IMG/VR virus record: IMGVR_UViG_3300046168_000026
Location: 96,001-160,000 of that record
DNA length: 64,000 nt
DNA from: a virus
Strand: one strand, 5' to 3'
Shown here: one piece after another, positions 345 through 47,819 of the stretch
How positions within the stretch are numbered: position 1 is the first letter of the stretch
Layout: each line of letters opens with the position of its first letter
Program-made: the position numbers and the translations under genes
Notes under the pieces: generated by a model
What the model was told of the DNA's origin: nothing
The model's database searches: none
Seen by the model: the letters and a program-made list of their open reading frames with translations, nothing else

Positions 345-348
345 ATGT

Positions 349-380
349 TAAATATACGAAATTATTTTGACTTTACCAAA
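349..380 (-). promoter_or_regulatory. Bacteroidota-type -33/-7 promoter upstream of polB
   Basis: Minus strand TTTG-N20-TATATTTA, 4 nt before the ATG. Confidence 0.65.
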
Positions 381-2100: not shown

Positions 2101-2114
2101 TCTAAATCTTTTCA

Positions 2115-2146
2115 CTAATATACGAAATTTATTTTAATTTTCCAAA
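2115..2146 (-). promoter_or_regulatory. Bacteroidota-type -33/-7 promoter for the HTH-mom-mom unit
   Basis: TTTG-N20-TATATTAG on the minus strand. Confidence 0.65.
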
Positions 2147-2691: not shown

Positions 2692-3779
2692 AAACTTTCT
2701 ACTTTCTTAAGTGCGGATGCGATTACTTGATGCATATCATAGTATTTGTACTCTGCCAACCTACCACCAAATATTACTTTATCTTGACCATCCGCAAGTT
2801 TTTTATATTTGTTATACATCTCATTGTTAATTTTATCATTTACAGGATAATATGGTTCTACCCCTCTTTCGTAAAGTTGTGGATACTCCCAACTAACATA
2901 AGTTCCTTTTTGATTCTGATTATCAAAATGTTTATGTTCTATGGTTCGAGTATAAGGTGTTTCTGAATCCGTATAGTTCATTAATGCACATCCTTGATAA
3001 TTATCTTTTGATTTATACATTTTATGCATCCAATGTAAAGACTTGTATTCTAAGTCACCATATTTGTAATCGAAGTACTTATCAATCGGACCTGTATAAA
3101 TTACTTTATCACCCATATCATCCCAAAAGTCTTTTTTATCAAAATAATCCGTTTCTGTAAATACTTCAATATCTTCTAACAACCTTTCAAATATCTGAGT
3201 GTATCCACCAATTGGTATTCCTTGATATTTGTCATTGAAGTAATTGTTATTATATGTGTATCTTACAGGCAATCTTTTGATAATTGACTTTGGTAACAAC
3301 TTAGCTGGCTTCATCCATTGTTTTTGGGTATAACCTTTTATTAACTTTTCGTAAATGTCGTCACCAACAAGTGCTTTCGCCTGTTCTTCTAAATTAGTTG
3401 GAGTATCCTTAAATCTTTGTGATTCAATCCTTTGTTTTGCTCCTTCGGGTGTCGTTACACCCCACATTTTGTTGAATGTATACATATTGAAAGGTAACGG
3501 ATATATTTCACCCTTATAGTTTGCAACTATATTCAATTGGAATTGGTGAAAATCTACAAACTGATTTATCCAATGCCAAACCTTATCATTATTTGTATGA
3601 AATATATGTGGTCCATATTTGTGTACATGAATACCTTCTATTTCTTCGGTATAACAATTACCACCTATGTGGTCTCGTTTTTCTAATACAAGAACCTTTT
3701 TACCTTTTTCTTTAAGTTCGTATGCACATACTGCACCAAAGAATCCAGAACCTACAATAATGTAATCGTATTTAGCCAT
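2688..3779 (-). CDS. glf: UDP-galactopyranose mutase
   Basis: FAD motif GSGFFGA, HIGGNCY, YGPHIFHT, YFNDKYQGIP, EPYYPVN, GRLAEYKYYDMHQ. Confidence 0.95.
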   Translation of the reverse strand: MAKYDYIIVGSGFFGAVCAYELKEKGKKVLVLEKRDHIGGNCYTEEIEGIHVHKYGPHIFHTNNDKVWHWINQFVDFHQFQLNIVANYKGEIYPLPFNMYTFNKMWGVTTPEGAKQRIESQRFKDTPTNLEEQAKALVGDDIYEKLIKGYTQKQWMKPAKLLPKSIIKRLPVRYTYNNNYFNDKYQGIPIGGYTQIFERLLEDIEVFTETDYFDKKDFWDDMGDKVIYTGPIDKYFDYKYGDLEYKSLHWMHKMYKSKDNYQGCALMNYTDSETPYTRTIEHKHFDNQNQKGTYVSWEYPQLYERGVEPYYPVNDKINNEMYNKYKKLADGQDKVIFGGRLAEYKYYDMHQVIASALKKVESL

Positions 3780-33433: not shown

Positions 33434-35245
33434 TTAGCTTTCCCTATTTTCCATGAACGAAACTACAATATAACGAGTACCTTTAGTGGTTGCACGCGCT
33501 CCATGCTTATGAGTTATATTGCCAGGATGTAATGTTGCGTAACCAATTGGATTTTTTACTAACTTCTTTTGTCTTCTGAACCAAGTACCACCACCTTCGT
33601 ATTCATCTAAATCTGATAGTTGTACTAAACAAGTAATATCTGCCCTATCGTGATGTATTCCCAAGTGTCCTTGTGCAGTTGGTATATATTTTGCTAAAAA
33701 GTTTTCGGAACTCATACTATCCCATCCTTTACCTTCTAACGCCCATAAATATACTGCAACTTGCATAACATAGTCTTTCAATACATCATTATATATCTCG
33801 TCCATTCCAATTTCTGTTATCAACATATCAGTTGTTGGGTAATTTTCATGTCGGTCAAAAGTCCATCTATTAGAATGTTCGGCTTCTTCTCTAATCATTT
33901 TACAAAATTCTTCAGTAAATAAAGGAAATTGAAAACAACTATCAAATGGTTCGTCTACTATCAAATCCCATTCCTTTGTACGAGCTGAATATGATATGAA
34001 TTTTTTTGTCCACTCATCTTTGTTGTCCCAATATGTGTATAGTTCTGGATGAAGTTTTTCAAATCCAAAATCTTCTGGCGGAGTAAATCCTCTTGCCTCA
34101 TCTGGTAACTTATCATTCACCAAATTATACCACTCTACATATCTGTCACTCCAATTTTGTTTTCTTGCAAATTGTTCAGCACTATCTAACAACTTCTTGT
34201 GTTCTTTTACTTGTTGACTTGAAAAAGCAAATGCTGCGATAAATGTATATCGCATAAGGCCTGTATTTTTATTTTCCCATTTGTAGTTATCAGGGGAACT
34301 ATCATCAAATGGAGTTTCACCTGACTCATGAGTATGTGAACTTATTAATGTACTTTTATTATCGAGTAAGTGTTTTAAATTACCTGTATCAGATGATAGA
34401 AGTTTAACTCTACCCATCATCATTTCAAGAGCAGTTATACAATATGTTTCAGGATACTGAGATGGGTAAATCCACCACTCAGAAGATTTAATTTGTTTGT
34501 ATAACTCAGATGGATTTAGTGAACCTAAATAATGTACATCAAAGTCTCTTTCATAAGTTGGGTAATCTTTTTTTATTCGTTCTAAAGTGTCCCAATCATT
34601 AGTATAAGGTGGTGATGCAACCCACAAAGTTAAATTAGGATTAATGTTTTTTAAATCATCCCAAATATTTAACAGATTCCACAATCCTCTATCAGGTCCA
34701 GATGTGTAAATTACTTTGTCTTTAAATTTTTCTTGTTGGATGGAATCAAAGTCGGATGGGTTTATAGCATTTCCTATAACTTTAACCTTTTCAGAGTTTA
34801 AATTATATTTTTTCACTAATTGACCCTTTTGCCACTCTGATACTGCGATTATATTTGTTAATTTAGGATGGTTTAGATAATCTACTCCATCATTTGGAAG
34901 AGTCTCACCATTATACCATGAATAGAACTCTAAATTATGTATCCAAAAGTAAGAACTATCGAATGTTATATTTTTATCTTCTAAAACTTTAAAGTAATGA
35001 ATGTAATTTGATGCAATAACAACATCAAAGTGTTGATTGTTATCAATACTGTCATAATCAATAAATTTTAGATTATTTGTTTGACTATTTGAAACTTCAC
35101 CTGTAATTATTACCTCGTGACCTTTCTTTTCAAACTCTTTAGCTAAGTTAATGACGCAATATTCAGAACCACCCATACCTTTTTGTTTTAGTATGGTGTC
35201 ATTAATTGGTTCGTTTTGATATCCTACTGTAAATAAAACTCTCAT
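33434..35245 (-). CDS. Fusion of a GT-B (GT4-like) glycosyltransferase and a PLOD-type lysyl hydroxylase (2OG-Fe(II)) domain
   Basis: N-terminal GGSE, YTSGPDRGL, YPSQYPETYCITALE. C-terminal LHPELY..WDN..EW, FPLFTEEFC, ENYPTTD, HHD, YEGGGTWF, LHPGNITHKH and GTRYIVVSF match lysyl hydroxylase motifs as I recall them. Confidence 0.85.
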   Translation of the reverse strand: MRVLFTVGYQNEPINDTILKQKGMGGSEYCVINLAKEFEKKGHEVIITGEVSNSQTNNLKFIDYDSIDNNQHFDVVIASNYIHYFKVLEDKNITFDSSYFWIHNLEFYSWYNGETLPNDGVDYLNHPKLTNIIAVSEWQKGQLVKKYNLNSEKVKVIGNAINPSDFDSIQQEKFKDKVIYTSGPDRGLWNLLNIWDDLKNINPNLTLWVASPPYTNDWDTLERIKKDYPTYERDFDVHYLGSLNPSELYKQIKSSEWWIYPSQYPETYCITALEMMMGRVKLLSSDTGNLKHLLDNKSTLISSHTHESGETPFDDSSPDNYKWENKNTGLMRYTFIAAFAFSSQQVKEHKKLLDSAEQFARKQNWSDRYVEWYNLVNDKLPDEARGFTPPEDFGFEKLHPELYTYWDNKDEWTKKFISYSARTKEWDLIVDEPFDSCFQFPLFTEEFCKMIREEAEHSNRWTFDRHENYPTTDMLITEIGMDEIYNDVLKDYVMQVAVYLWALEGKGWDSMSSENFLAKYIPTAQGHLGIHHDRADITCLVQLSDLDEYEGGGTWFRRQKKLVKNPIGYATLHPGNITHKHGARATTKGTRYIVVSFMENRES

Positions 35246-35247
35246 AT

Positions 35248-36534
35248 CTATTCTACTATATAATTAACAAATTCTTCGTTTTTACCATATCTGTCATAAT
35301 CTCTATAACTGATATCTTTTATTGAATGGTTTTTTTCATAATCCCACATCCAATCTTCTTTTCCTAATTCCTCAAATCTATCCTTTATTTGAGTATCATA
35401 ATAATCTCTAATTAACCTTGCTCTTCGGTTAATATCAACTCTATTGTTGTCAACAGTAGAGTCTCCATTATTATATTGTACATATAACATTTTTTTAAGA
35501 TGAATAAATTTAGTTTCTAAAAATGTTTTAATAATTAATTCTAAATCATCTGCGACTGAAATATTTCTATTGTGTCCTCTGATTTTATGATACACATCTC
35601 GATTCCAAACTCTACAATGGTTTGGCATCCCAATATTAAATCTAATTGTTTTTGGATTTATTTCAGGATAATGATGTACTAACCACTCTTTATCATCAAT
35701 CTCTTGCCAAGTATGACCTGCGTAACCCCATACAAATCCATTCTCAGAATGACCATACCAATCATCACCTATGTAACCATATATTCTCGGTGAATTATCC
35801 TTTTCAACTTCAGTTACATCTGTATAAATAAATCCAGCATCTGTATGTTTCTTACTTGCATCAAGAACATCTTCTAAACAAGTTGATATTAACCAATCAT
35901 CGTGGTCTAATTCAAATAACCACTCACCATTACATAACATTGCCGCTCTATGTTTAGCCTCACCAACATTTCCACCTGATATTGGTGATATTCTATATGG
36001 TTTTACCCTATAATCTAATTTAGCTATATGATTTATCATTTGCCAAGTTAAATGATGGTCTTCTGGTGAATCATCTACCACAACCCACTCCCAATTCTGA
36101 TATGTTTGTTCTAATAGAGATTTGTATGTTCTAAATATTCTATTTTCAGTTTTATATGTTGGAGTGAATACTGATAATAGTGGTGAATCTTCATTACTAT
36201 AAACTCTATTTGATTCACATGACCAAAAAGTTGACTGACAAACTACATCATTCGCTATTACATTATCAGGATAAATTTCTTCTGCATTAACTATCTTAGA
36301 TTTTACAATATCATCGGTTACATTTTGTAATTCCGATGGAATTTCACCTATTACATAAATAATATCAGCTTTATGTTTGGATAAATGTGATTTCCAATTT
36401 TTAGCATCTCTGTATGAATAAATTACAACATTTTCGAATAAATCTTCTTCGTGATAGATGTCGGATGTTAATTCGTATTTACCAAATCGTTTCCAACCAT
36501 ATACTAATGCCGTTGGTAAAGTAGTCTTTTGCAT
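35248..36534 (-). CDS. Glycosyltransferase family 2
   Basis: SVFTPTYK, WEWVVVDDS, ELDHDD, ADDLEL. Confidence 0.88.
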   Translation of the reverse strand: MQKTTLPTALVYGWKRFGKYELTSDIYHEEDLFENVVIYSYRDAKNWKSHLSKHKADIIYVIGEIPSELQNVTDDIVKSKIVNAEEIYPDNVIANDVVCQSTFWSCESNRVYSNEDSPLLSVFTPTYKTENRIFRTYKSLLEQTYQNWEWVVVDDSPEDHHLTWQMINHIAKLDYRVKPYRISPISGGNVGEAKHRAAMLCNGEWLFELDHDDWLISTCLEDVLDASKKHTDAGFIYTDVTEVEKDNSPRIYGYIGDDWYGHSENGFVWGYAGHTWQEIDDKEWLVHHYPEINPKTIRFNIGMPNHCRVWNRDVYHKIRGHNRNISVADDLELIIKTFLETKFIHLKKMLYVQYNNGDSTVDNNRVDINRRARLIRDYYDTQIKDRFEELGKEDWMWDYEKNHSIKDISYRDYDRYGKNEEFVNYIVE

Positions 36535-36537
36535 ATC

Positions 36538-37140
36538 TTATCTGTAAGGTTCACCACCAACCCATAAAACAAATGATTTTCGTATACCACTTGTTACGGG
36601 AGTTACTCTATGTAAATAAAATGAAGGAAATATAATCGCTGCTCCTTTTTTAGAAGGTGCAGTCAATTCTTTTCCAATATTAAATTGTAAGTCACCACCT
36701 TCGTATTCATTTGAATCTGAAAGTTGTACTGTTACTGATATTTTTCTTTGATTTTGTATCTCTATACCACAATCCATATGCCAATCATACCCACCTTCTT
36801 GACTTCCGTAATATTCAGTATATTGAATTGATTCATTCATAGTAGATAAATCAAACTTCCACATTTTTTGATTTGATTCTACAATCATATTGTGAAGTTT
36901 TTCATAAACCCATCCCCATTCTTGATTTTGAGGACACCATTTTACTCTTGATTTTCTATAATCTGATTTTTTTGATGATTCACCTTCACCTGTTGCTGCA
37001 TCTTCAAATGGAAGGAGTTTGGTCATTTGTTCTATTTGACTTAATTCAGTTGAATCAAACCCATCTGCGAACCAATAATAATCTGTGAAATTTACATCCC
37101 ATCTATGAGGGTTTCTATCGAATCCAAAATTTGCTCTCAT
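36538..37140 (-). CDS. 2OG-Fe(II) oxygenase (PKHD / prolyl-hydroxylase-like)
   Basis: YDWHMD, KISVTVQLS..YEGGDL, FPSFYLHRVTPVTSGIRKSFVLW. Confidence 0.88.
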   Translation of the reverse strand: MRANFGFDRNPHRWDVNFTDYYWFADGFDSTELSQIEQMTKLLPFEDAATGEGESSKKSDYRKSRVKWCPQNQEWGWVYEKLHNMIVESNQKMWKFDLSTMNESIQYTEYYGSQEGGYDWHMDCGIEIQNQRKISVTVQLSDSNEYEGGDLQFNIGKELTAPSKKGAAIIFPSFYLHRVTPVTSGIRKSFVLWVGGEPYR

Positions 37141-37178
37141 AACTTTTTTAATGTTTGTATATAAATATGAAAAATAAT

Positions 37179-40100
37179 TTAGTAAAAGCTACCACTATGT
37201 ACAGACCTTATGATATAGACATCATCACCTGAAGACCATCCATTTGGTTTAAATGTTAGTATACCACCTTGAACTTCAAAATATCCTAAACCACTCATCG
37301 AAGCCCCTTGAGCACCAATTACACCTTTTACACCTTGAACACCCGTATTACCTTTAACGCCAGTACGACCACCTGAGCCAGTTGCACCTTTATTACCTGC
37401 ATTACCTTGAGCACCTTGAACACCACCACCACCTGTTGTACCTTTAGAACCTTTATCGCCTGAATTACCTGTTTTACCTTTTAGACCTTGTAAACCTACT
37501 GCGCCTGTATTACCTTTATCACCTGCGAGGCCTGTATTCCCTTTAATACCCGTTCTACCGCCAGAGCCAGTTGCACCTTTATTACCTGCATCACCTTGAG
37601 CTCCAACTGCACCTTGGTTTCCTGTATTACCTTTAGAACCCTTATCGCCTGCATCACCTTGAGCTCCAACTGCACCTTGTAAGCCCGTTGCACCCGTATT
37701 ACCTTTATCACCTGCTACGCCTGTATTACCTTTTACACCAGTACGACCACTTGAACCAGTTGCACCTTTATTACCTGCATCACCTTGAGCTCCAACTGCA
37801 CCTTGATTACCTTGGTTACCTTTTGCACCTTTATTACCTGCGAGGCCGGTATTACCTTTATTTCCTTTAACACCTTGGTTACCAGTATTTCCTTTATTAC
37901 CTGCATCACCTTGAGGACCTGTTGCACCTTTTACACCTGTTCTACCACCTGAGCCAGTAACACCTTTATTACCTGCAGCACCTTGAGCACCAAGTAGACC
38001 TTGATTACCAGTATTTCCTTTAGAACCCTTATCGCCTGAGTTACCTGTTTTACCTTTTAGACCTTGTAAACCTACTGCGCCTGTATTACCTTTGTTTCCG
38101 GCAACACCCGTATTACCTTTTACACCTGTTCTACCACCTGAGCCAGTAGCACCTTTATTACCTGCATTACCCTTAGTACCTTTATCACCTTGGTTACCAG
38201 TATCTCCTTTAGCACCTTTATCACCTGCGAGGCCTGTATTACCTTTTAGACCTTGTAAACCTACTGCGCCTGTATTACCTTTGTTACCTGCATCGCCAGT
38301 ATTACCTTTTACACCTGTTCTACCAGTTGAGCCAGTAGCACCTTTATTACCTGCATCACCTTGAGCTCCAATTGCACCTTGTAAACCTACTGCGCCAGTA
38401 TTTCCTTTAGAACCTTTATCGCCCGAATTACCTTTTGCACCTTTTAGACCTTGTAAGCCCGTTGCACCCGTATTACCTTTATTACCTGCGAGGCCTGTAT
38501 TCCCTTTAATACCCGTTCTACCACCTGAGCCAGTAGAACCCTTATTACCTGCGAGGCCTGTATTTCCTTTAACACCTTGGTTACCAGTATTTCCTTTACT
38601 ACCCTTATTACCTGCATCACCTTGAGCTCCAACTGCACCTTGTCGACCTACTGCGCCTGTATTACCTTTGTTACCTGCTACGCCTGTATTACCTTTACAC
38701 CAGTACGACCACCTGAGCCCGTACCACCTTTATTACCCGTATTTCCTTTTGCACCTGTTAGTCCTGTATCACCAGTATTTCCCTTAGCACCTTTATTACC
38801 TGCGAGGCCTGTATTTCCTTTATTTCCTTTAGCACCTTGATTACCTTGATTACCTTTAGCACCTGCGAGGCCTGTATTTCCTTTTGCACCTGTTGCACCT
38901 GCCGAACCTGCAGCACCTTTATTACCTGCGAGGCCTGTATTTCCTTTTACACCTTGGTTTCCTGTATTACCTTTAGAACCTTTATCGCCTGAATTACCTG
39001 TTTTACCTTTTAGACCTTGTAAGCCCGTTGCACCCGTATTACCTTTATTACCTGCGAGGCCTGTATTCCCTTTTACACCTGTTCTACCACCTGAGCCAGT
39101 AACACCTTTATTACCTGCAGCACCTTGGTTACCCTTAACACCTTGATTACCAGTATTTCCTTTAGCACCTTTATTACCTGCGAGGCCGGTATTACCTTTA
39201 TTTCCCTTTGCACCTTGGTTTCCTGTATTACCTTTAGCACCTGCAACACCCGTATTACCCTTAACGCCTGTTCTACCAGTTGAGCCAGTAGAACCTTTAT
39301 TACCTGTATTACCTTTGTTACCCTTAGCACCTTGGTCACCTGCCGAGCCAGTATTACCTTTTGCACCTTTATTGCCCGAATTACCTTTTGCACCTTTTAG
39401 ACCTTGTCGACCTGTGTTTCCTGTTGACCCTTTGTTTCCTGCAGAACCCGTATTACCCTTAACGCCTGTTCTACCACCTGAGCCAGTAGAACCTTTATTA
39501 CCTTGAGCACCTTGGTTACCCTTAGCACCTTGTAGACCTGTATTTCCTTTAGCACCAGTTTCACCTGCGAGGCCTGTATTTCCCTTTGAACCTTGATTAC
39601 CAGTATTTCCTTTAGCACCTTTATTTCCTGCGAGGCCTGTATTTCCTTTTGAACCTTGTCGACCACTGATTCCAGTAGCACCTTTATTTCCTGCAAGACC
39701 CGTATTACCTTTTGAACCTTGATTACCAGTATTTCCTTTTGAACCTTTTGCACCTGCGAGGCCTGTATTTCCCTTTGAACCTTGATTACCAGTATTTCCT
39801 TTAGCACCTTTATTACCTGCGAGGCCTGTATTTCCTTTTGCGCCTGTTCTACCACCTGAGCCAGTAGAACCTTTATTTCCTGCGAGGCCTGTATTTCCTT
39901 TTGAACCTTGTCGACCTGTATTACCTGTTGAACCTTTATTACCTGCGAGGCCTGTATTTCCTTTAGCACCTTGTAGACCCGTATTTCCTTTAGCACCTTG
40001 GTTACCTGCGAGGCCTGTATTACCCTTTACACCTGTTCTACCAGTTGAGCCAGTAGAACCTTTATTTCCTGCGAGGCCTGTATTTCCTTTAGCACCTTGA

Positions 40101-41431
40101 TTACCAGTATTTCCTTTTGAACCTTTTGCACCTGCGAGGCCTGTATTTCCTTTTACACCTTGGTTTCCTGTATTACCTTTTGACCCTTTTGCACCTGCGA
40201 GGCCTGTATTTCCTTTTGCGCCTGTTCTACCACCTGAGCCAGTAGAACCTTTATTACCTGCGAGGCCTGTATTTCCTTTAACTCCTTGTGCTCCTGTTGC
40301 ACCTTGTGAACCAGTTGCACCTGTATTTCCTTTTACACCTTGTCGACCTGTATTACCTGTTGAACCTTTATTACCTGCATTACCCTTTAAACCTGTTGGA
40401 CCTTGAGGGCCAGTTGCGAAACCGAGTCCAGCTATACCTGTATTACCCTTTAAACCTGTTGGACCTTGAGGGCCTGTTGCAGCTGATGCACCTGTAGCTC
40501 CCTTTGCACCCTGTCCTCCAGAAGAAGCATTTGAACCTGCATCACCTGCAGCTCCTTTTGCACCTTGAGGACCTGTGGAACTATCTGAATCGGAACAATT
40601 ATTACAAGATGTATAAGCTTGATAATTACCTGAACTGTTTAAACATAGTTGAGTACCATCAGGACTAACTGACCCTTGATTTTCATAACAAGTAGTACCT
40701 ATTTTTATTACAGTAGAATTAAATTCATCTTGAAATGCAAATTCAAAATAAGCATCATCACTACATCTTGAAAATTCATAGGCGTACTCACATTCCTCTT
40801 CCCCGAATCCTTTATCGTTGTGTACTATGAATCTATTAACTAAGAACAAGTCAGATTCTTCAATATCTAATTTTGATACTGGAAACTGACCTAATAAACT
40901 TGGATTCTCGGTATTTACTTCTTGAAAACCACCTGTAACTGGCACATATTCAAATGTAGAGTTATCTGATTTTAATTTTACTAAGTAATGGTTACTATAT
41001 TCGTCTGAACCCCATTCGATTCCATCTAATTGTTCAAAGTAAATATTCCACCCGCTTTGAATAGAAGAAGTGGTTTCGGTCTCTTCATCCCAAACAACTT
41101 GTCTATTTTTCTGTGCAACAAGGATATATTCTTGGTCTGTAACTGATAAGGAACCTGATGGTGTTTCTAATGTATATACATTTGCAAACTTTAAGGTATT
41201 AGAGTTATTTGCAATAGACCAAACAACTTCTTCATTTTCATTTAATTGAATATATGAAAAATCATTGAAACTACCCGTCCATGTAGTTGGTATATCATTT
41301 TGAAATGTATATCCACTCCCACTAAGACTAATACCTACAATAGTTGACCCTGAATTTATATTTTTTAATTCAGAAGTAGACCCTTGTAGATTTACTAAAG
41401 TATGTTGTGTATTTAAAAATCCAACTGCCAT
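37179..41431 (-). CDS. Collagen-like protein B: Hint domain, Cys-rich linker, ~1090-residue Gly-X-Y tract (~1417 aa after repairing a 1-nt deletion near 38695)
   Basis: The track ORF ends at 38678, where the repeat GGTGTAAAAGGT has lost one A. Gly-X-Y continues in the shifted frame to ...GYFEVQGGILTFKPNGWSSGDDVYIIRSVHSGSFY* (stop 37179-37181); 4253+1 nt = 1418 codons. Confidence 0.85.
40817..41431 (-). other. Hint-like domain of collagen B (aa 1-205), ending His-Asn
   Basis: MAVGFLNTQHTLV (block A-like, no Cys) ... VSKLDIEESDLFLVNRFIVHN|D (blocks F and G). Confidence 0.6.
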
Positions 41432-41448
41432 TGTAACCTTATTTTAGT

Positions 41449-44400
41449 TTATGAAGAACCACTTGTATACATTAATACAACAAATTTTGTACTTCCACTC
41501 TGAAATGTTAATAATCCATCAGTTGCCGAGTATGCAAATCCACCACTTGGACCTACTTCAGCGCCACCAATTAATGTTCCAATTCCACTTGCACCTTTCT
41601 GACCTTGTCCACCTTGAAGACCTTGAGCGCCTTGAGAACCTTTTGGTCCTTGAGCACCTTGAGCCCCCGTAGGACTTGCACCTTGAGCACCTTGAGGACC
41701 TTGAGCACCTTGAGCACCTTGGTCACCTTGAGGACTTGCACCTTGAGCACCTTGGTCACCTTGAGGACCTTGAGCACCTTGTGCACCAGTTGGACTGGCA
41801 CCTTGTGCACCTTGAGAACCTTTTGGTCCTTGAGCACCTTGAGCCCCCGTAGGACTTGCACCTTGAGCACCTTGGTCACCTTGAGGACCTTGTGCACCTG
41901 TATCTCCTTTTGGACTTGCACCTTGAGCACCTTGGTCACCTTGAGGACCTTGAGCACCTTGTGCACCAGTTGGACTGGCACCTTGAGCACCTTGAGAACC
42001 TTTTGGTCCTTGAGCACCTTGAGCCCCCGTAGGACTTGCACCTTGAGCACCTTGGTCACCTTGAGGACCTTGTGCCCCTGTATCACCTTTAGGACTTGAA
42101 CCTTGAGCACCTTGAGCACCTTGGTCACCTTTAGGACCTTGAGCACCTTGAGGACTTGCCCCTTGAGCACCCGTTGCTCCTTGAGCACCTTGAGGACCTT
42201 GAGCACCTTGAGCTCCCGTAGGACTTGCACCTTGAGCACCTTGGTCACCTTTAGGACCTTGTGCACCTGTATCTCCTTTTGGACTTGCACCTTGAGCACC
42301 TTGGTCACCTTGAGGACCTTGAGCACCTTGAGCACCTGTTGGACTGGCACCTTGAGCACCTTGAGAACCTTTTGGTCCTTGAGCACCTTGTGCACCAGTT
42401 GGACTTGCACCTTGAGCACCTTGGTCACCTTGAGGACCTTGTGCCCCTGTATCACCTTTAGGACTCGAACCTTGAGCACCTTGAGAACCTTTTGGTCCTT
42501 GAGCACCTTGAGCACCTTGAGGACTTGAACCTTGAGCACCTTGAGAACCTTTTGGTCCTTGAGCACCTTGTGCACCAGTTGGACTTGCACCTTGAGCACC
42601 TTGGTCACCTTGAGGACCTTGAGCACCTTGAGCACCTTGGTCACCTTTAGGACTTGAACCTTGAGCACCTTGGTCACCTTGAGGACCTTGAGCACCTTGT
42701 GCACCAGTTGGACTGGCACCTTGAGCACCTTGAGAACCTTTTGGTCCTTGAGCACCTTGAGCCCCCGTAGGACTTGCACCTTGAGCACCTTGAGAACCTT
42801 TAGGACCTTGAGCACCTGTATCACCTTTAGGACTCGAACCTTGAGCACCTTGGTCACCTTGAGGACCTTGAGCACCTTGTGCACCAGTTGGACTGGCACC
42901 TTGAGCACCTTGAGAACCTTTTGGTCCTTGAGCACCTTGAGCACCTTGAGGACTTGCTCCTTGAGAACCTTTTGGTCCTTGAGCACCTTGAGCACCTGTA
43001 TCACCTTTAGGACTTGAACCTTGAGCACCTTGAGCACCTTGGTCACCTTTAGGACCTTGTGCTCCCGTAGGACTTGCACCTTGAGCACCTTGTGAACCTT
43101 TTGGTCCTTGAGCACCTTGAGCACCTTGAGGACTTGAACCTTGAGCACCTTGAGAACCTTTAGGACCTTGAGCACCTGTATCACCTTTAGGACTCGAACC
43201 TTGAGCACCTTGGTCACCTTGAGGACCTTGAGCACCTTGTGCGCCAGTTGGACTCGAACCTTGTGCACCTTGAGAACCTTTAGGTCCTTGAGCACCTTGT
43301 GCACCAGTTGGACTGGCACCTTGAGCACCCGTATCTCCTTTAGGACCTTGTGCACCTGTATCTCCTTTAGGACTTGAACCTTGAGCACCTTGAGCACCTT
43401 GGTCACCTTTAGGACCTTGTGCTCCCGTAGGACTTGCACCTTGAGCACCCTGTGAACCTTTTGGTCCTTGAGCACCTTGAGCACCTTGAGGACTGGCACC
43501 TTGAGCACCCGTATCTCCTTTAGGACCTTGTGCACCTTGAGCACCTTGGTCACCTTTAGGACTAGCACCTTGAGCACCTTGGTCACCTTGAGGACCTTGA
43601 GCACCTTGTGCACCAGTTGGACTGGCACCTTGAGCACCCGTACTTCCTTTAGGTCCTTGAGCACCTTGAGCCCCCGTAGGACTTGCACCTTGAGCACCTT
43701 GAGAACCTTTTGGTCCTTGAGCACCTTGTGAACCTTTTGGACTGGCACCTTGAGCACCTTGTGAACCTTTTGGTCCTTGTGCACCTGTATCACCTTTTGG
43801 ACTTGCACCTTGAGCACCTTGAGAACCCTTTGGTCCTTGTGCACCTTGAGCACCTGTTGGACTTGCACCTTGAGCACCTTGAGAACCTTTAGGACCTTGA
43901 GCACCTGTATCACCTTTAGGACTCGAACCTTGAGCACCTTGTGAACCCTTTGGTCCTTGTGCACCTGTATCACCTTTTGGACTGGCACCTTGAGCACCTT
44001 GAGAACCTTTTGGTCCTTGAGCACCTTGAGCACCTGTTGGACTTGCACCTTGAGCACCTTGAGAACCCTTTGGTCCTTGTGCACCTTGAGCACCTGTTGG
44101 ACTCGAACCTTGAGCACCTTGAGAACCCTTTGGTCCTTGAGCACCTTGTGAACCCTTTGGACTTGAACCTTGAGCACCTTGAGAACCTTTTGGTCCTTGA
44201 GCACCTTGAGCCCCCGTAGGACTAGCTCCTTGAGCACCTTGTGAACCCTTTGGTCCTTGTGCACCTGTATCACCTTTTGGACTGGCACCTTGAGCACCTT
44301 GTGAACCTTTTGGTCCTTGTGCCCCTGTATCACCTTTAGGACTCGAACCTTGAGCACCTTGAGAACCTTTTGGTCCTTGAGCACCTTGAGCACCTGTTGG

Positions 44401-45159
44401 ACTTGCACCTTGAGCACCCGTAGTTCCTTTTGGTCCTTGAGCACCTTGAGCACCTTGAGGACTTGCACCTTGTGAACCTTTTGGTCCTTGAGCACCTTGA
44501 GCACCTTGAGGACTTGCACCTTGTGAACCTTTTGGTCCTTGAGCACCTTGTGCGGATGAACCTGATGAACCTTGAGCACCTTGAGAACCTTTTGGCCCTT
44601 GAGCACCTTGAGAACTTGCACCTTGAGCACCTGTAGCTCCCTTTGCACCCGTTGAACCAGATGAACCTGCCGAACCTTTTTGTCCTTTTTGTCCTTTAGC
44701 ACCTTGAGGACCTGTATTGTGTATTAGTAACTCACCTACAAAGTAATTATGGTCTGGTTCTACTTCGATACTTATAAGTTCTATTGGTTTTTCAACTAAT
44801 TTTACTGAAGTTATCTTTATTCCATTGAAAAATGGTGTAGTACCACATTTACAATCACCACAACCACATGATTCGTTACCGACTGGTGAAACCCATTCAC
44901 CATCTTTATATATTTTTATATCGACAGAAGTTTTTAGCTCAGTTCCGTCTGAAAGTTTAATTTGTAAGTAGGAGTCGAGAGTTCTTTCCCATTTGGTTAC
45001 AACCTTATTGTACCTAATGACCCCATTTTCAACATCATAACCTTTTATATAGTCACCAAGTTCAATATTAGACAAATTGATTGGAACGCCTTGTCTATTA
45101 TTTACTCTTCCTTTGATGTCTACTAAGGTATCTTTATGTAATCCATGTATATGTTCCAT
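41449..45159 (-). CDS. Collagen-like protein A: Hint domain and ~1040-residue periodically interrupted Gly-X-Y tract
   Basis: [15 protein letters not shown] triplets; short C-terminal domain [31 protein letters not shown]. Confidence 0.9.
41590..44620 (-). repeat. Predominantly 60-nt (20-aa) tandem repeat: six Gly-X-Y triplets plus a 2-residue P(T/K/Q) insert
   Basis: Consecutive 60-nt sequence lines around 42.2-43.5 kb start with near-identical words; unit [20 protein letters not shown]. Confidence 0.9.
44716..45159 (-). other. Hint (intein-like) domain of collagen A (aa 1-148), ending His-Asn followed by Thr
   Basis: [11 protein letters not shown]...[11 protein letters not shown]...[12 protein letters not shown]...[20 protein letters not shown]|TGPQG. 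Confidence 0.75.
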
Positions 45160-45169
45160 AACTTACCCC

Positions 45170-46001
45170 TTAACTAACAAAATCAAGTCTTAATATTATT
45201 GTGAAACCAAATCCCCTTGACCTGGCCGATGAACCTCTATTTACTAATAAACTTAATGGTGCACTACCACTAAATGCATATGTTGAACCAAAAGTATAGG
45301 TTGTTGGAACACCTGCGGTTGCTGAAATTGTTCCATTTACTTCGGTTGAAATATTGCCACCCTCTTCTTTCCATTGTAATCCAACAGTACCACTTGTTGC
45401 AGATTGATGTGGACTTACAATTACTGATTCTATATATCCATCGACAGGCGCTACATATTGCCAATAACCAGTTTGAACTTCTGCATCCATTTGGTTTATA
45501 TTGCCAAATGGTACATAGCCAGTTACTTCAGATGCTTTTTAGTACCTCACCATTTGTTACAATGATTTGTTTTTCTTTTTCTGCGTCAAGTGAACCTATA
45601 ATTGTAACACCACTATTATTTACTTGTAGTCTTTTTGTACCACCTGTTTTAACTTCAAAACTATCTGCACCACCAAATCCAAATTTAGTGTTGGTATCAC
45701 CTTTATGTTCAATGTATGTTGGTATTTCTATTAGACCAGATGCGGTAATATCAACGGCAGACAAGCTTGATTTACTCGTTAATGTATTATCTACGGTAAA
45801 ACTCGTAAATCTACCATCGTTAAATGTTAGTGCTGATGTACCAACCGACCCTATATTGTCGGTTTGTGGGACAATATTCGCTCCTGCGTTAAATTGTCCT
45901 TCAAGTTGAAAACCACCTTCGAATAATACATCCGATGAGGCGGTTACTTTGTTTAATACGGCATTACTGCCAGAAGTTATTAATTTTTTCCAATTTGGCA
46001 T
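45170..46001 (-). CDS. Fibre-like structural protein (~276 aa after repairing a 1-nt insertion near 45538)
   Basis: ORFs 45528..46001 and 45170..45490 join as VLK-ASEVTGYVPFGNINQMDAEV; N-terminus MPNWKKLITSGS. Confidence 0.65.
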
Positions 46002-46018
46002 ATTCTAATCCTCTTTGC

Positions 46019-46070
46019 GGTTGGTAACTCAACTATTGAGCCCACTTCCCCTTTTCGGGGGCCAACAACC
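46019..46070 (-). ncRNA. Candidate structured cis-regulatory RNA (multi-stem junction) in the leader of the fibre/collagen genes
   Basis: GGUUG/CAACC closing stem enclosing CCCC-GAAAA-GGGG and CUCAA-UAG-UUGAG hairpins; GC-rich island in AT-rich DNA. Confidence 0.4.
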
Positions 46071-46121
46071 AGGTTCTTTAATTTATTCCTTGTATATAAG
46101 TATCAAGAAAAAAAGAAAGAA

Positions 46122-46499: not shown

Positions 46500-47819
46500 T
46501 TAAGAATAAATCCAAATAGTTTCATCATCAGTTCTTACATTAATAGTACCTACTCCTTGGAATGTTGGAGCGGTTGTTGGATTTGCACCCGTTGAAGTCT
46601 GAATATTACCTAATTTAGAATCTATATTTGCACTAGTTGCATTATGTGCTAATTCTTCGACAAATCCGAAGTTACCAGTACCTGCGCCAGTTCTTTCCCA
46701 ATAAATTGCGTGACCTGCTTGTGCAGTACCACTTGAACCACCAAATATAATACCAGCATCAGCACCAGCTGAACCAGAATTGATAAGTATGAATTGGTCT
46801 TCTACATTTAAGTTTGCAACATTTAATTCTGTTCTTGAACCTTCAACAGTTAAATCACCTGTCACTACCATATTTGCAAATTGTACATTAGAACTATTTG
46901 TTACACCTTGGTTCATTGCACCTAAGTAACCCCATTGAGTTGCTGAGATTGTTGTTGTACCGATGTTCTCTAATTGTGCACCTTCGTCTGCAGTTAAGTT
47001 ACTGATTTCAGTTACTGATGCTGCGGAGATTGAACCTGAATGTATTCCTGCACCCAATCCTCTAACACCTGCTGCCGTAAGTGTAAATGCGTTTGCACCA
47101 TCTGCTACATTTAATATACCTAAAACTTCTGATTTAGATAAAGCTTTTACTACACCATCTGAAGCTGCAGTTCTACCTACTATTGTGTCTGTTGCGACAT
47201 TTTGTATTTTAGCAAAAGTAACACCACTATCTTTAATTCTTAGTGCGTCTGAGTTAAGTTCGATTGTTGAATCGTCAACACCTACTGCTAATGAGATAGT
47301 TCCATTACTTCCTGTATTAGTAGTAAATGAACCACCACCTGATAAACCATTACCTGCAGTTACTGTTATTGTTGAATTTTGAACACCACCTAATGCAGAT
47401 ACCTGTGCTGATGAGGATACAATTCCTGCACCTAATGCTCTAATTCCTGCTGCGTCAGTTACATCTGCTCCGTTTTCAACATTAATCAGTTCTAATACAT
47501 TTGCTTTAGTTAATGCCGATGGAGCTGCAGTGTCCCCTGTTATATTACCTAAGATTGTATTGTTTGCAATACTTTCTATTTTTGCGAGTGTTACACCACC
47601 ATCTTTTATACTAATAGTTTTTCCCGCCGCACCATCATATGTGGTACCCGAGTTAAGTTGGATTGTCGAATTATCTACTGTAAGACTATTTCCAACTTGA
47701 GTTGCTGTTGTTGCCGTTGTTGCGTTTCCGACTAAATTACCTTTGAATCCTACTGATGCAGAAACTTCGGCTAAACTAGCTATCGAACCCGAGACAATGA
47801 CTTTTTTCCATGTTGCCAT
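46500..47819 (-). CDS. Tail fibre-like structural protein
   Basis: MATWKKVIVSGS N-terminus, duplicated 'IKDxGVTxAKI' module, VTGDLTVEG..VEDQFILIN. Confidence 0.7.
   Translation of the reverse strand: MATWKKVIVSGSIASLAEVSASVGFKGNLVGNATTATTATQVGNSLTVDNSTIQLNSGTTYDGAAGKTISIKDGGVTLAKIESIANNTILGNITGDTAAPSALTKANVLELINVENGADVTDAAGIRALGAGIVSSSAQVSALGGVQNSTITVTAGNGLSGGGSFTTNTGSNGTISLAVGVDDSTIELNSDALRIKDSGVTFAKIQNVATDTIVGRTAASDGVVKALSKSEVLGILNVADGANAFTLTAAGVRGLGAGIHSGSISAASVTEISNLTADEGAQLENIGTTTISATQWGYLGAMNQGVTNSSNVQFANMVVTGDLTVEGSRTELNVANLNVEDQFILINSGSAGADAGIIFGGSSGTAQAGHAIYWERTGAGTGNFGFVEELAHNATSANIDSKLGNIQTSTGANPTTAPTFQGVGTINVRTDDETIWIYS

What the first reader, a model, noticed from the sequence alone, without database searches (positions are those of the whole stretch)
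33434..46070. Candidate phage 'procollagen' pathway: self-cleaving collagens with dedicated hydroxylases and glycosyltransferases
Seen, contiguous and co-oriented between the fibre and neck genes: a fibre-like protein, Hint-collagen A, Hint-collagen B, a 2OG-Fe(II) hydroxylase, GT2, and a GT4-lysyl hydroxylase fusion. A late motif sits at 37160 in front of the enzymes. Both Gly-X-Y tracts are ~1040-1090 residues with Lys at Y (GPK, GAK, GNK, GVK, GSK). Known: animal PLOD enzymes hydroxylate X-Lys-Gly, the hydroxylysine is then glycosylated, and propeptides are removed; mimivirus has a similar enzyme; a triple helix of ~1000 residues is ~300 nm long. Inference: this bacteriophage builds long, hydroxylysine-glycosylated collagen fibres, using Hint domains as self-removing propeptides. 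Possible roles are host capture through glycan-binding receptors, adhesion, or shielding. I do not know of this complete arrangement being described in a bacteriophage, but could not search.
Basis: partly seen in the sequence, partly recalled or inferred. Interest (0 to 1): 0.92.

Follow-up and report, generated by a model that had tools for sequence, protein, structure and literature searches.

The report
Phage collagen fibres with lysine-modifying enzymes
An uncultured marine T4-like phage encodes two roughly 300-nm collagen-like fibre proteins, each starting with an intein-type domain that probably cuts itself off, next to an animal-type collagen lysyl hydroxylase fused to a sugar transferase, so phages probably make sugar-coated hydroxylysine collagen, a chemistry published only for animals and giant viruses.

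Summary
On the minus strand, between the fibre/baseplate genes and the gp13-like neck gene, lie p157, p106, ColA, ColB, a PF13640 2OG oxygenase, a GT2, and a GT4 fused to a PLOD-type lysyl hydroxylase (LH) domain. The LH domain matches human LH3 at E 9e-31 and keeps the metal and 2OG ligands.

ColA and ColB have 1043- and 1090-residue Gly-X-Y tracts. 175 of their 178 lysines are followed by Gly and none of their prolines is.

ColB is split by a one-base frameshift in this record. Contigs from four other seawater runs carry the extra base that restores one 1417-aa frame.

Both N-terminal domains have the Hint fold. ColA has lost the residues for N-terminal scission and keeps the His…His-Asn|Thr cleavage set.

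Of 80 IMG/VR loci with the LH domain, 64 have a collagen gene directly upstream. The other 16 are cut within 826 nt. An unrelated phage lineage links a Hint-less collagen to the same enzymes, so the core module is collagen + PF13640 oxygenase + GT4-(GT25)-LH. Hint and GT2 are add-ons.

Nothing is tested biochemically, and I found no paper on this in phages. This scan had already noted the enzyme module in at least 24 other genomes and the Hint caps in one.

The parts
45528..46001 (-). p157, a fibre-like protein and first gene of the collagen transcription unit. It shares the N-terminal motif WKK-x-I-x-SGS with the 439-aa fibre protein at 46500-47819.
   Evidence: ORF list; phrog_18345 tail fibre, E 1.5e-8; no Pfam or NCBIfam hit.
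45170..45490 (-). p106, a small protein of unknown function that precedes ColA in the relatives examined.
   Evidence: ORF; homologues directly upstream of ColA in L011, L015, L020 and L075; no family hit.
44716..45159 (-). ColA N-terminal Hint domain (residues 1-148), ending in His-Asn and followed by Thr-Gly-Pro. Proposed self-cleaving cap.
   Evidence: AF2 model, pLDDT 79. Foldseek top hits are all BIL domains and inteins, prob 1.0, TM 0.65-0.8. Weak sequence hits to gp41-1 intein (6e-4) and PT-HINT (3e-4). [10 protein letters not shown] and HNTGP are invariant in 12 orthologues.
41584..44712 (-). ColA collagen-like tract (residues 150-1192): 264 Gly-X-Y triplets with 50 regular five-residue interruptions, G-[AS]-S-P-[TKQ].
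   Evidence: PF01391, 260 bits; triplet and lysine statistics.
41452..41583 (-). ColA C-terminal cap (44 aa), homologous to the ColB cap. Candidate trimerisation or attachment domain.
   Evidence: Alignment A4 of 16 caps from both families, motif G[GY]F...G.LTF..G......SGS; no PDB or Pfam relative.
40817..41431 (-). ColB N-terminal Hint-like domain (residues 1-205), ending in Val-His-Asn.
   Evidence: AF2 model is weak (pLDDT 52). Even so, residues 75-208 match only inteins and hedgehog Hint among the top 30 chains, Z up to 9.3, with the alignments ending at the HN. The profile aligns to the ColA Hint over the last 26 columns only. V-H-N is invariant in 11 orthologues.
40574..40816 (-). ColB Cys-rich spacer (residues 206-286) between the Hint domain and the collagen tract, ending in the motif D-x-D-S-S-x-G.
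   Evidence: Alignments A2 and A3; length varies and it is reduced to about 20 residues in L015.
37305..40573 (-). ColB collagen-like tract (1090 residues, 357 triplets, 3 interruptions), split in this record by the frameshift at 38693-38696.
   Evidence: PF01391, 301 bits; three-frame translation; statistics.
38693..38696 (-). One-base frameshift site in ColB: A3 where A4 is needed (GTAAAGGTAAT).
   Evidence: Contigs of four independent seawater or viral metagenome runs carry an extra T behind 38693 on the + strand, which restores the frame. Relatives have single ColB ORFs of 1237-1370 aa.
37182..37304 (-). ColB C-terminal cap (41 aa); the stop codon is at 37179-37181.
37160..37167 (-). Promoter-like motif (coding strand ATATTTATA) 20 nt upstream of the oxygenase gene.
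   Evidence: The same motif lies 11-46 nt upstream of the sheath, neck, baseplate and PhoH genes.
36538..37140 (-). OG200, a stand-alone 2OG-Fe(II) oxygenase (PF13640, PKHD/YbiX/PiuC-like) with HxD...H...R present. Its substrate residue is unknown.
   Evidence: Pfam E 1.4e-13; phrog_61; PDB 3dkq and PiuC; NCBIfam Fe2+-dependent dioxygenase. A homologue is conserved in the cassette in both phage lineages.
35248..36534 (-). GT2-family (GT-A fold) glycosyltransferase, 428 aa.
   Evidence: PF00535, E 5e-17; nearest solved relative is chondroitin synthase, E 4e-12. Absent from some relatives and from the second lineage.
34256..35245 (-). GT4 (GT-B fold) glycosyltransferase domain of the fusion protein (residues about 1-330).
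   Evidence: PF13439 and PF00534; NCBIfam GT4-type matches.
33437..34069 (-). PLOD-type collagen lysyl hydroxylase domain of the fusion protein (residues 393-603).
   Evidence: Human LH3 E 9e-31 and mimivirus L230 E 7e-22, with HHD, distal His and Arg aligned. H, D, H and R are invariant across distant relatives.

Best explanation
This is a late-expressed structural module of an uncultured marine T4-like myovirus. It makes two very long collagen-like fibre proteins and modifies them in the infected cell.

Proposed steps:
1. ColA and ColB are translated with an N-terminal Hint domain.
2. While the chains are still unfolded, the PLOD-type domain of the GT4-LH fusion hydroxylates lysines in X-Lys-Gly. 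Nearly every lysine of both tracts is in that context.
3. The fused GT4 domain adds sugar to the new hydroxylysine. The GT2 gene of this phage, or the extra GT25 domain fused into the enzyme of some relatives, probably extends or varies the glycan.
4. The conserved PF13640 oxygenase adds a second, unidentified hydroxylation.
5. The chains trimerise, probably nucleated by the shared 40-aa C-terminal cap.
6. The Hint domain removes itself by cyclisation of its C-terminal Asn. This leaves a fibre of about 300 nm that starts with Thr-Gly-Pro in ColA, or with a Cys-rich knot in ColB.
7. The fibres are mounted on the virion. The genes sit where T4 has its short tail fibre and whisker genes, just before gp13.

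Shown here: the domain identities, the catalytic residues, the lysine positions, the Hint fold and its residue pattern, and the gene linkage.

Inferred: all of the chemistry, the cleavage, the trimerisation and the virion location. My rough odds are LH acting on these collagens 0.8, glycosylation of hydroxylysine 0.65, Hint self-cleavage 0.65, virion fibre 0.7.
For: **Lysyl hydroxylase.** Residues 393-599 match the LH domain of human LH3 (E 9e-31) and mimivirus L230 (E 7e-22), with the HxD, distal His and Arg aligned.

**Substrate sites.** 59 of 59 Lys in ColA and 116 of 119 in ColB are followed by Gly, and no Pro is. The same holds in 16 orthologous collagens, for example 98/98 and 83/83, and in the second lineage at 146/146 and 230/230.

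**Linkage.**
- The order p106-ColA-ColB-oxygenase-GT2-GT4LH-neck is conserved in 13 relatives at 60-99% enzyme identity.
- Of 80 IMG/VR loci fetched with the LH domain (279 found), 64 have a collagen ORF directly upstream. The other 16 are cut within 826 nt, and four of those still show the collagen's C-terminal cap.
- All 5 ColA-bearing genomes tested carry GT4-LH.
- An unrelated phage backbone (portal phrog_6547) links a collagen to GT4-GT25-LH and a PF13640 oxygenase.

**Glycosylation of hydroxylysine.** Among 69 multidomain LH proteins, 43 carry GT25 (the family of the animal collagen galactosyltransferases), 23 the PLOD GT domain and 15 GT4.

**Negative controls.** The cultured relatives Mel-JY01 and immuto have PhoH directly next to the neck gene and no LH homologue. 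Mel-JY01's collagen-like fibre has no lysine in its tract.

**Hint.**
- The ColA model matches BIL domains and inteins, and the ColB model matches only Hint folds.
- In ColA, Cys1 is Gly or Ala, the block-B His is absent and Asp F:4 is Ser130. His F:13, His G:6, Asn G:7 and Thr+1 are invariant in 12 orthologues down to 47% identity. The roles of these residues are taken from PMC4031507.

**Timing.** The oxygenase gene carries the same upstream motif as the sheath, neck and baseplate genes.
Against: - No experiment of any kind exists, and there is no cultured host or virion.
- Bacterial homologues of GT4-LH (40-44% identity) sit alone in chromosomes with no collagen gene nearby. The enzyme family is therefore not tied to collagen everywhere.
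- Lysine preferring the Y position is a general tendency of collagens, and the repeats are not independent observations.
- Lysine number varies from 8 to 98 per tract among orthologues.
- In some inteins Asn cyclisation is coupled to the earlier steps, which cannot occur here (PMC4031507).
- One subclade has Arg-Asn instead of His-Asn in ColB.
- The ColB Hint assignment rests on a low-confidence model (pLDDT 52) and a 26-column profile match.
- ColB is frameshifted in this record.
- The phage has three more PF13640 oxygenases elsewhere, so such genes are common in it.
Confidence: 0.6

Rival explanations
1. The enzymes do modify the collagens, but the Hint domains are not cleaved. They stay on the fibre as folded end domains, for example as a registration or trimerisation knob, an attachment site or a receptor-binding tip. 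Their His-Asn is then a relic or has a structural role.
For: - The N-terminal nucleophile, block-B His and Asp F:4 are gone, and some inteins need the earlier steps before Asn cyclisation (PMC4031507).
- The L057-L064 subclade has Arg-Asn in ColB.
- ColB residues 1-80 are an extra, poorly modelled segment that may have its own role.
Against: - Across two paralogues so diverged that only the last 26 columns align, the conserved residues are exactly the C-terminal catalytic ones. ColA keeps H137, H147, N148 and T149 invariant down to 47% identity. ColB keeps V-H-N among only 13 invariant columns.
- The losses are the ones that uncouple C-terminal cleavage from splicing, and they are not scattered at random.
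Confidence: 0.2
2. The glycosyltransferases act on something other than hydroxylysine. They might glycosylate Thr or Ser of the collagens directly, as in Bacillus BclA, or they might act on other virion proteins or host envelope glycans. The lysyl hydroxylase domain might hydroxylate a non-collagen protein.
For: - Thr is as common as Lys at Y in ColB (113 against 116).
- GT2 and GT4 are generic families whose nearest named relatives make polysaccharides.
- Bacterial GT4-LH homologues have no collagen neighbour.
Against: - The GT4 is covalently fused to the LH domain in at least 308 protein clusters.
- LH domains are fused mostly to GT25 or to PLOD-GT, the two families that glycosylate collagen hydroxylysine in animals.
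- Linkage to collagen genes holds in 64 of 64 informative phage loci and in two unrelated phage backbones.
- The one related phage examined that has collagen but no LH has no Lys in its tract.
Confidence: 0.1
3. The collagens are modified as proposed, but they are not tail or neck fibres. They could be head decoration, or a released matrix or coat material that acts outside the virion.
For: - In the second lineage the collagen gene sits right after the portal gene, among head-module genes.
- No anchoring domain was identified in ColA or ColB.
- Mimivirus uses its modified collagens in a capsid fibre layer (papers listed).
Against: - In the T4-like lineage the genes lie between a gp10-like baseplate or fibre-connector gene plus fibre genes and the gp13 neck gene, which is the place of gp12 and wac in T4 (T4 gene order from my own knowledge).
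- They are co-transcribed with a fibre-like protein, with only 10-37 nt between the genes.
Confidence: 0.1

Closest known systems
Acanthamoeba polyphaga mimivirus L230, a bifunctional collagen lysyl hydroxylase and hydroxylysine glucosyltransferase (LH domain PDB 6ax6), together with the mimivirus collagens, L593 prolyl hydroxylase and R699 glucosyltransferase
   Same: A virus encodes its own collagens plus a single polypeptide that joins a glycosyltransferase to a C-terminal PLOD-type LH domain. The LH domains are homologous (E 7e-22). A separate small 2OG oxygenase is also encoded.
   Different: - The host is a bacterium, not a eukaryote.
- The N-terminal transferase is GT4 (GT-B fold), not the PLOD-type GT-A domain.
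- The enzymes sit directly next to their presumed substrates in a structural operon.
- The collagens carry Hint caps.
- There is no X-Pro-Gly for a prolyl 4-hydroxylase.
- L230 activity is shown experimentally (PMC5802723, PMC9546862). Nothing is shown here.
Animal procollagen lysine modification: PLOD1-3/LH3 (PDB 6fxk), COLGALT1/2 (GT25), and propeptide removal by procollagen proteinases
   Same: - The target motif is X-Lys-Gly.
- The LH domain is homologous at E 9e-31 with all ligands aligned.
- Relatives of this phage fuse a GT25 domain into the same protein.
- The logic is the same: modify the unfolded chain, form the triple helix, then remove a terminal non-collagen domain.
   Different: - The propeptide is removed by a built-in Hint domain, not by external metalloproteinases.
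- The process would take place in the bacterial cytoplasm, with no ER.
- There are no hydroxyproline sites.
- The GT4 and GT2 domains have no counterpart in the animal pathway.
Type-A bacterial intein-like (BIL) domains (C. thermocellum BIL, PDB 2lwy; Tetrahymena BIL2, 6y75) and mini-inteins such as gp41-1 (6qaz)
   Same: The Hint fold, the C-terminal His-Asn and the block-F His. In these domains cleavage products dominate over splicing (PMC4031507).
   Different: - There is no N-terminal Cys or Ser, no block-B His and no Asp F:4.
- The domain sits at the very N-terminus, with only 2-5 residues in front.
- Only C-terminal cleavage is chemically possible.
- It is fused to a collagen.
Self-cleaving C-terminal intramolecular chaperone domains of phage tailspikes and fibres (Peptidase_S74: K1F endosialidase, T5 L-shaped fibre). 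Recalled from my own knowledge, not tested here.
   Same: A terminal domain of a trimeric phage fibre that is proposed to help assembly and then cut itself off.
   Different: A different fold and chemistry (Ser-Lys dyad against Asn cyclisation), and the opposite end of the protein. No sequence or structural relation was found or sought.
Bacterial and prophage collagen-like proteins (Scl1/2, BclA, phage tail-fibre collagen repeats), and the predicted bacterial hydroxylase/sulfotransferase operons with collagen-like proteins (Iyer et al. 2010, PMC2938197)
   Same: Prokaryotic Gly-X-Y proteins without hydroxyproline. BclA is glycosylated. Iyer et al. predict that operon-encoded dioxygenases modify neighbouring collagen-like proteins.
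   Different: Those operons use beta-hydroxylase or PhyH-type dioxygenases and sulfotransferases, not a PLOD-type LH fused to a glycosyltransferase. BclA is glycosylated on Thr. None carries a Hint cap.

Membership tests
PLOD-type collagen lysyl hydroxylase (LH domain) | Full-length sequence similarity to the C-terminal LH domain of LH3 and L230 | tested here: met
   Residues 393-599 against LH3 498-714, E 9e-31; against L230 LH domain (6ax6) 25-234, E 7e-22.
PLOD-type collagen lysyl hydroxylase (LH domain) | Fe(II) triad His-x-Asp...His and the 2OG-binding Arg | tested here: met
   HHD, TH-x-H and T-R-Y align with the LH3 residues. By my count these correspond to H667/D669/H719/R729; the LH3 numbering is from memory. 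H, D, H and R are invariant in alignments A5-A7.
PLOD-type collagen lysyl hydroxylase (LH domain) | Hydroxylates Lys in X-Lys-Gly of collagen chains | not testable with these tools
   Only the presence of sites (175 of 178 Lys followed by Gly) and the gene linkage could be shown.
PLOD/LH3/L230 whole-protein architecture | N-terminal PLOD-type GT-A glycosyltransferase domain (PF25342) before the LH domain | tested here: not met
   The N-terminal half is GT4 (PF13439/PF00534). PF25342 is found in 23 of 69 other LH proteins but not in this clade.
Hint superfamily (intein / type-A BIL), ColA | Hint fold | tested here: met
   AF2 pLDDT 79. Foldseek found 59 PDB matches at E<=1e-3, and the listed matches are BIL domains and inteins, TM 0.65-0.8.
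Hint superfamily (intein / type-A BIL), ColB | Hint fold | tested here: inconclusive
   The model is weak (pLDDT 52). Residues 75-208 nevertheless match only Hint-fold chains in the top 30, Z up to 9.3. hhalign to the ColA Hint covers only 26 columns, prob 31%. There are no Pfam or PDB sequence hits.
Hint superfamily (intein / type-A BIL) | C-terminal His-Asn (blocks G:6, G:7) and block-F His | tested here: met
   ColA has DHNY...HN|T invariant in 12 sequences. ColB has VHN invariant in 11 sequences but its block-F His is replaced. The L058 group has Arg-Asn.
Hint superfamily (intein / type-A BIL) | N-terminal Cys/Ser/Thr nucleophile, block-B Thr-x-x-His and Asp F:4 | tested here: not met
   In ColA position 1 is Gly or Ala, the block-B His is absent and F:4 is Ser130. 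ColB starts M-x-G-G-F or M-x-G-L-N, with no nucleophile.
Hint superfamily (intein / type-A BIL) | Autocatalytic peptide-bond cleavage | not testable with these tools
   Needs expression of ColA(1-250) with and without N148A.
Collagen triple-helix repeat (PF01391) | Long uninterrupted Gly-X-Y periodicity above the Pfam cut-off | tested here: met
   ColB scores 301 bits, with 357 triplets and 3 interruptions. ColA scores 260 bits but has 50 regular five-residue interruptions.
Collagen triple-helix repeat (PF01391) | Forms a trimeric triple helix | not testable with these tools
Collagen prolyl 4-hydroxylase (for the PF13640 oxygenase) | P4H-type 2OG oxygenase domain with HxD...H...R/K | tested here: met
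   PF13640, E 1.4e-13. WHMD, LHRV and RKSF are visible in the translation. The nearest solved structures are PKHD-type hydroxylases 3dkq and PiuC.
Collagen prolyl 4-hydroxylase (for the PF13640 oxygenase) | Substrate motif X-Pro-Gly present in the partner collagen | tested here: not met
   There are 0 Pro-Gly dipeptides in either tract. Pro occurs only at X or inside the interruptions.
GT25 collagen galactosyltransferase (COLGALT-like) | PF01755 domain in the enzyme | tested here: not met
   Absent from the window's 603-aa protein. Present between the GT4 and LH domains in relatives P0072/L023 and L119.
T4-type late promoter | TATAAATA on the coding strand upstream of late genes | tested here: not met
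   The motif at 37160 is on the non-coding strand, and 15 of its 18 copies lie on that strand. The coding-strand element is ATATTTATA.

The most novel reading that the evidence does not exclude
Marine phages carry a widespread, mobile toolkit for collagen hydroxylysine glycosylation, found in at least 279 IMG/VR contigs and on two unrelated backbones. Its LH domain scores higher against human LH3 than against the mimivirus enzyme. The T4-like lineage has in addition evolved a natural single-use propeptidase, a Hint domain stripped down to Asn-cyclisation-only cleavage, to mature 300-nm collagen fibres. If so, phages and bacteria would be a reservoir of the LH + GT25 chemistry that animals use for their matrix, and possibly its source. 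The system would also give a bacterial-cytoplasm route to glycosylated, self-processing recombinant collagen.
Probability: 0.3. Interest if true: 0.9.

Novelty: new variant of a known kind. Interest (0 to 1): 0.8.

Why it matters
Hydroxylysine-linked glycosylation of collagen is regarded as an animal trait, with mimivirus as the one viral exception.

- **Phage biology.** A conserved and abundant phage module would mean that bacteriophage fibres can carry this modification. That bears on host recognition, fibre stability without hydroxyproline, and resistance to proteases.
- **Evolution.** The module bears on where the LH and GT25 enzymes came from.
- **Biotechnology.** It offers enzymes that probably work in a bacterial cytoplasm for making glycosylated recombinant collagen. 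Authors of the mimivirus work state that this cannot yet be done in bacteria (PMC9546862).
- **Protein chemistry.** The Hint caps would be a natural counterpart of the engineered C-terminal-cleaving intein tags. They suggest a way to control the assembly of very long triple helices.

Tried and rejected
- **Close DNA relatives.** Megablast of the enzyme genes against cultured phages found nothing. tblastn found only partial matches at <=30% identity.
- **ColA Hint domain.** The word-index search among proteins of similar length found none. Among longer proteins it found 3 fragments. tblastn against cultured phages found none.
- **ColB N-terminal domain.** The IMG/VR pattern scan found none. Pfam and PDB sequence searches and the protein atlas gave nothing usable.
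- **ColB Hint evidence.** AF2 gave only pLDDT 52. hhalign against the ColA Hint aligned only the last 26 columns.
- **Frameshift comparison.** I could not compare the frameshift site with the closest relatives L009 and L010. Their ColB DNA is only about 78% identical, although their enzyme proteins are 96-99% identical. Laying contigs of public runs settled the question instead.
- **Programmed frameshift.** I considered programmed -1 frameshifting at A-AAG. I rejected it in favour of an assembly error or minor variant, because the intact A4 form exists as DNA in four runs.
- **Cap relatives.** The PDB profile search with the cap alignment matched only through its collagen part.
- **Bacterial genome.** The genome behind L022 is not held, so I could not check it for collagen genes elsewhere.
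- **PiuC/YbiX substrates.** The literature search found nothing.
- **LH alignment.** The 20-sequence LH alignment was too diverse for a pattern scan. A 6-sequence one worked.
- **Class-2 or class-3 splicing.** I considered intein-like splicing without Cys1. ColA lacks the required block-B His, Asp F:4 and block-F Cys, and ColB has no +1 nucleophile.

Full report
**Source.** The window is bases 96001-160000 of a 176-kb IMG/VR viral contig estimated 97% complete. Nearly all genes lie on the minus strand. PHROG matches identify a T4-like myovirus: tail sheath, gp13-like neck protein, gp10-like baseplate/fibre connector, major head protein and PhoH. The nearest cultured relatives by capsid protein are Microcystis phage Mel-JY01 (57%), Flavobacterium phage immuto (52%) and Rhodothermus phage RM378 (36%). 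The stretch occurs in seawater and marine viral metagenomes of 19 studies.

**Observation.** In transcription order the region holds:
- p157 (45528-46001), with a weak tail-fibre PHROG match
- p106 (45170-45490)
- ColA (41449-45159, 1236 aa)
- ColB (from 41431)
- a 200-aa PF13640 2OG oxygenase (36538-37140)
- a 428-aa GT2 (35248-36534)
- a 603-aa protein with GT4 domains and a C-terminal oxygenase domain (33434-35245)
- the neck gene

Only 10 and 17 nt separate p106 from ColA and ColA from ColB.

**Promoter-like motif.** The TATAAATA at 37160 is on the + strand. On the coding strand the element reads ATATTTATA. In that form it also lies 11-46 nt upstream of the sheath, neck, baseplate and PhoH genes. 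I read it as a promoter element that the enzyme genes share with late structural genes, and not as the T4 late consensus as such.

**ColB frameshift.** ColB stops after 917 aa at GTAAAGGTAAT. The collagen frame continues one base out of phase for another 504 aa, to a stop at 37179-37181. Relatives have single ColB ORFs of 1237-1370 aa. I laid Logan contigs of four independent seawater or viral metagenome runs on 38400-39000. In each run one contig has an extra T behind 38693 on the + strand, carrying about a third to a half of the local depth. That turns A3 into A4 on the coding strand and gives one 1417-aa frame. The split in this record is therefore an assembly error or a minor allele. It need not be a pseudogene or a programmed shift.

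**Collagen tracts**.
- ColA residues 150-1192 (1043 aa) hold 264 Gly-X-Y triplets and 50 regularly spaced five-residue units, G-[AS]-S-P-[TKQ]. The helix would be interrupted about every 20 residues.
- ColB residues 287-1376 (1090 aa) hold 357 triplets and 3 interruptions, with Asn dominating X and Lys (116) and Thr (113) dominating Y.
- 59 of 59 Lys in ColA and 116 of 119 in ColB are followed by Gly. No Pro is followed by Gly in either tract.
- The lysine rule holds in 16 orthologues, although the number of Lys ranges from 8 to 98.
- At 0.286 nm per residue (textbook value) each tract would span about 300 nm.
- Both proteins end in a homologous cap of about 40 residues with no known relative.

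**Hint domains: ColA.**
- Residues 1-148 give weak but consistent sequence hits to the gp41-1 intein, PT-HINT and a BIL domain. Each alignment ends at the terminal His-Asn.
- An AF2 model built on 12 orthologues (pLDDT 79) matches only BIL domains and inteins at the top of the PDB (prob 1.0, TM 0.65-0.8).
- In the 12 orthologues, down to 47% identity, [10 protein letters not shown] and HN|TGP are invariant.
- Against gp41-1, the Cys1 position is Gly or Ala, the block-B His is missing and Asp F:4 is Ser130.
- According to the review PMC4031507, Cys1, His B:10 and Asp F:4 drive the N-terminal steps. His F:13, His G:6 and Asn G:7 drive Asn cyclisation, and Asp F:4 can hold that cyclisation back until the earlier steps are done.
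- So the N-terminal machinery is lost and the C-terminal machinery is strictly kept. This pattern is what a domain selected for C-terminal cleavage alone should show.

**Hint domains: ColB.**
- Sequence methods fail and the AF2 model is poor (pLDDT 52).
- Its better-modelled part (residues 75-208) nevertheless matches only inteins and hedgehog Hint among the top 30 of 48,161 chains, with Z up to 9.3, and the alignments end at residue 205-208.
- The profile aligns to the ColA Hint over the last 26 columns.
- Val-His-Asn is invariant in 11 orthologues that share only 13 invariant columns.
- One further subclade has Arg-Asn.
- A variable Cys-rich spacer follows the Hint domain.

**Third Hint protein.** A fibre protein of at least 2341 aa, outside the window, carries a complete Hint domain (Cys1, S-x-x-H, HN|T) after a short collagen-like stretch. 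It is a plausible source of the caps.

**Enzymes.**
- Residues 393-599 of the fusion match the LH domain of human LH3 (E 9e-31) and of mimivirus L230 (E 7e-22). The HxD, distal His and Arg are aligned.
- The N-terminal half is GT4, a GT-B fold, unlike the GT-A domain of PLODs.
- The 200-aa oxygenase is a PKHD/YbiX/PiuC-type enzyme. Its nearest solved structure is 3dkq, which Guo et al. report as the closest non-LH structure to L230 (PMC5802723).
- With no X-Pro-Gly present, it cannot be acting as a classical collagen prolyl 4-hydroxylase here. Its target residue is unknown.

**Comparative evidence: the T4-like lineage.**
- 13 IMG/VR relatives (enzyme 60-99% identical) keep the order p106-ColA-ColB-oxygenase-GT2-GT4LH-neck-sheath.
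- 20 contigs carry the ColA Hint, and all 5 tested also carry GT4-LH at the expected distance.
- A scan with an LH alignment found 279 viral contigs. Of the best 80, 64 have a collagen ORF directly upstream of the enzymes. The other 16 are cut at most 826 nt upstream of the first enzyme gene, and four of them still show the ColB cap in what is left.
- The enzyme set varies: with GT2, without GT2, or with a GT25 domain inserted between GT4 and LH.

**Comparative evidence: a second lineage and controls.**
- Eleven loci belong to a different phage type: portal phrog_6547, then a collagen of 1004-2147 aa without a Hint domain, then DUF6445, GT4-GT25-LH, a PF13640 oxygenase and virion proteins. In two of the three collagens examined every Lys is followed by Gly (146/146, 230/230), and in the third 150 of 154 are.
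- The conserved core is therefore collagen + PF13640 oxygenase + GT4-(GT25)-LH. Hint caps and GT2 are lineage-specific additions.
- In Mel-JY01 and immuto, PhoH abuts the neck gene, so the whole 19.5-kb fibre, collagen and enzyme block is absent there. Neither has an LH homologue. Mel-JY01's collagen-like fibre has no Lys in its tract.
- Bacterial homologues (40-44% identity) stand alone in chromosomes.

**The LH family at large.**
- An exhaustive search found 1937 representative clusters at E<=1e-3 and 87 at E<=1e-30.
- Of 69 multidomain representatives, 43 carry GT25, 23 the PLOD GT domain, 15 GT4 and 8 a PF13640 domain.
- The domain is thus fused again and again to the glycosyltransferase families that act on collagen hydroxylysine in animals. 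This supports the view that the fused transferases act on the hydroxylase's product.

**Mechanism and its rivals.** These are set out in the fields above. The chemistry, the cleavage, the trimerisation and the virion location are all inferences.

**Novelty.**
- Full-text searches combining lysyl hydroxylase or hydroxylysine with phage, collagen-like, Hint or tail fibre returned only work on mimivirus, animals or recombinant collagen. They also returned the 2010 prediction of bacterial hydroxylase/sulfotransferase operons next to collagen-like proteins. The library lacks most subscription journals.
- Earlier notes of this scan describe GT25-LH and GT4-LH fusions next to Lys-Gly collagens in at least 24 other genomes, and Hint-capped collagens in one other genome. 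The module is therefore not unique to this record. Those notes are AI readings, and my conclusions rest on the calls cited here.

Noticed in passing
L052:5239-12264 (= G000:169238-176263, outside the window): A third fibre protein of at least 2341 aa runs off the contig end. It has Ig-like repeat modules, a short collagen-like stretch, and then a complete Hint/mini-intein (Ser|Cys-Val-Leu..., S-N-S-H, ...Ser-His-Asn|Thr) followed by a C-terminal domain of about 230 aa. It matches the ColA Hint profile at E 6.5e-7.
   Followed up: partly
L113-L123 (IMG/VR contigs), e.g. L119:400-20556: A second, non-T4 phage lineage carries portal, a collagen (1004-2147 aa, no Hint, nearly all Lys followed by Gly), DUF6445, GT4-GT25-LH (about 777 aa), a PF13640 oxygenase and virion structural proteins. 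The collagen-modification module is therefore mobile between phage backbones.
   Followed up: partly
window 15877, 30504, 30845, 33417, 37160, 52900, 53617, 61400, 63372: A recurrent motif, ATATTTATA on the coding (minus) strand, lies 11-46 nt upstream of structural genes. It is a candidate late promoter of this phage group and reads as the reverse complement of the T4 late consensus.
   Followed up: partly
window 37179-41431 against L009 and L010: The enzyme genes of the closest relatives are 96-99% identical in protein. ColB is only about 65% identical in protein and 78% in DNA. Either the collagen genes diversify much faster than their neighbours or they are assembled unreliably.
   Followed up: partly
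L022, L050, L051 (bacterial chromosomes): GT4-LH homologues (40-44% identity) occur as single genes in gammaproteobacterial-type chromosomal contexts with no collagen gene within 10 kb. Their substrate is unknown.
   Followed up: partly
window 46002-46102: The leader before p157 contains a GC-rich inverted repeat (GGCCCC-GAAAA-GGGG, flanked by GGTTG...CAACC). This is unusual in a genome of 33% GC. I did not examine it.
   Followed up: no
window 45528-46001 and 46500-47819: p157 and the 439-aa fibre protein share the N-terminal motif M-x-x-W-K-K-[VL]-I-x-S-G-S. It may be a common attachment peptide.
   Followed up: no
L058:1740-5915 and the L057-L064 group: The ColB orthologue of L058, checked as the example of this subclade, ends its Hint-like domain in Val-Val-Arg-Asn instead of Val-His-Asn.
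   Followed up: no
G000:64831-65121, 78482-78796 and window 2188-2463: Three further PF13640 2OG oxygenase genes lie elsewhere in the genome.
   Followed up: no
W01 (Mel-JY01, PP395634.1) 1-3050: Microcystis phage Mel-JY01 has a 1016-aa collagen-like fibre built of GTS/GSS triplets with no lysine in the tract. The genome has no lysyl hydroxylase.
   Followed up: partly
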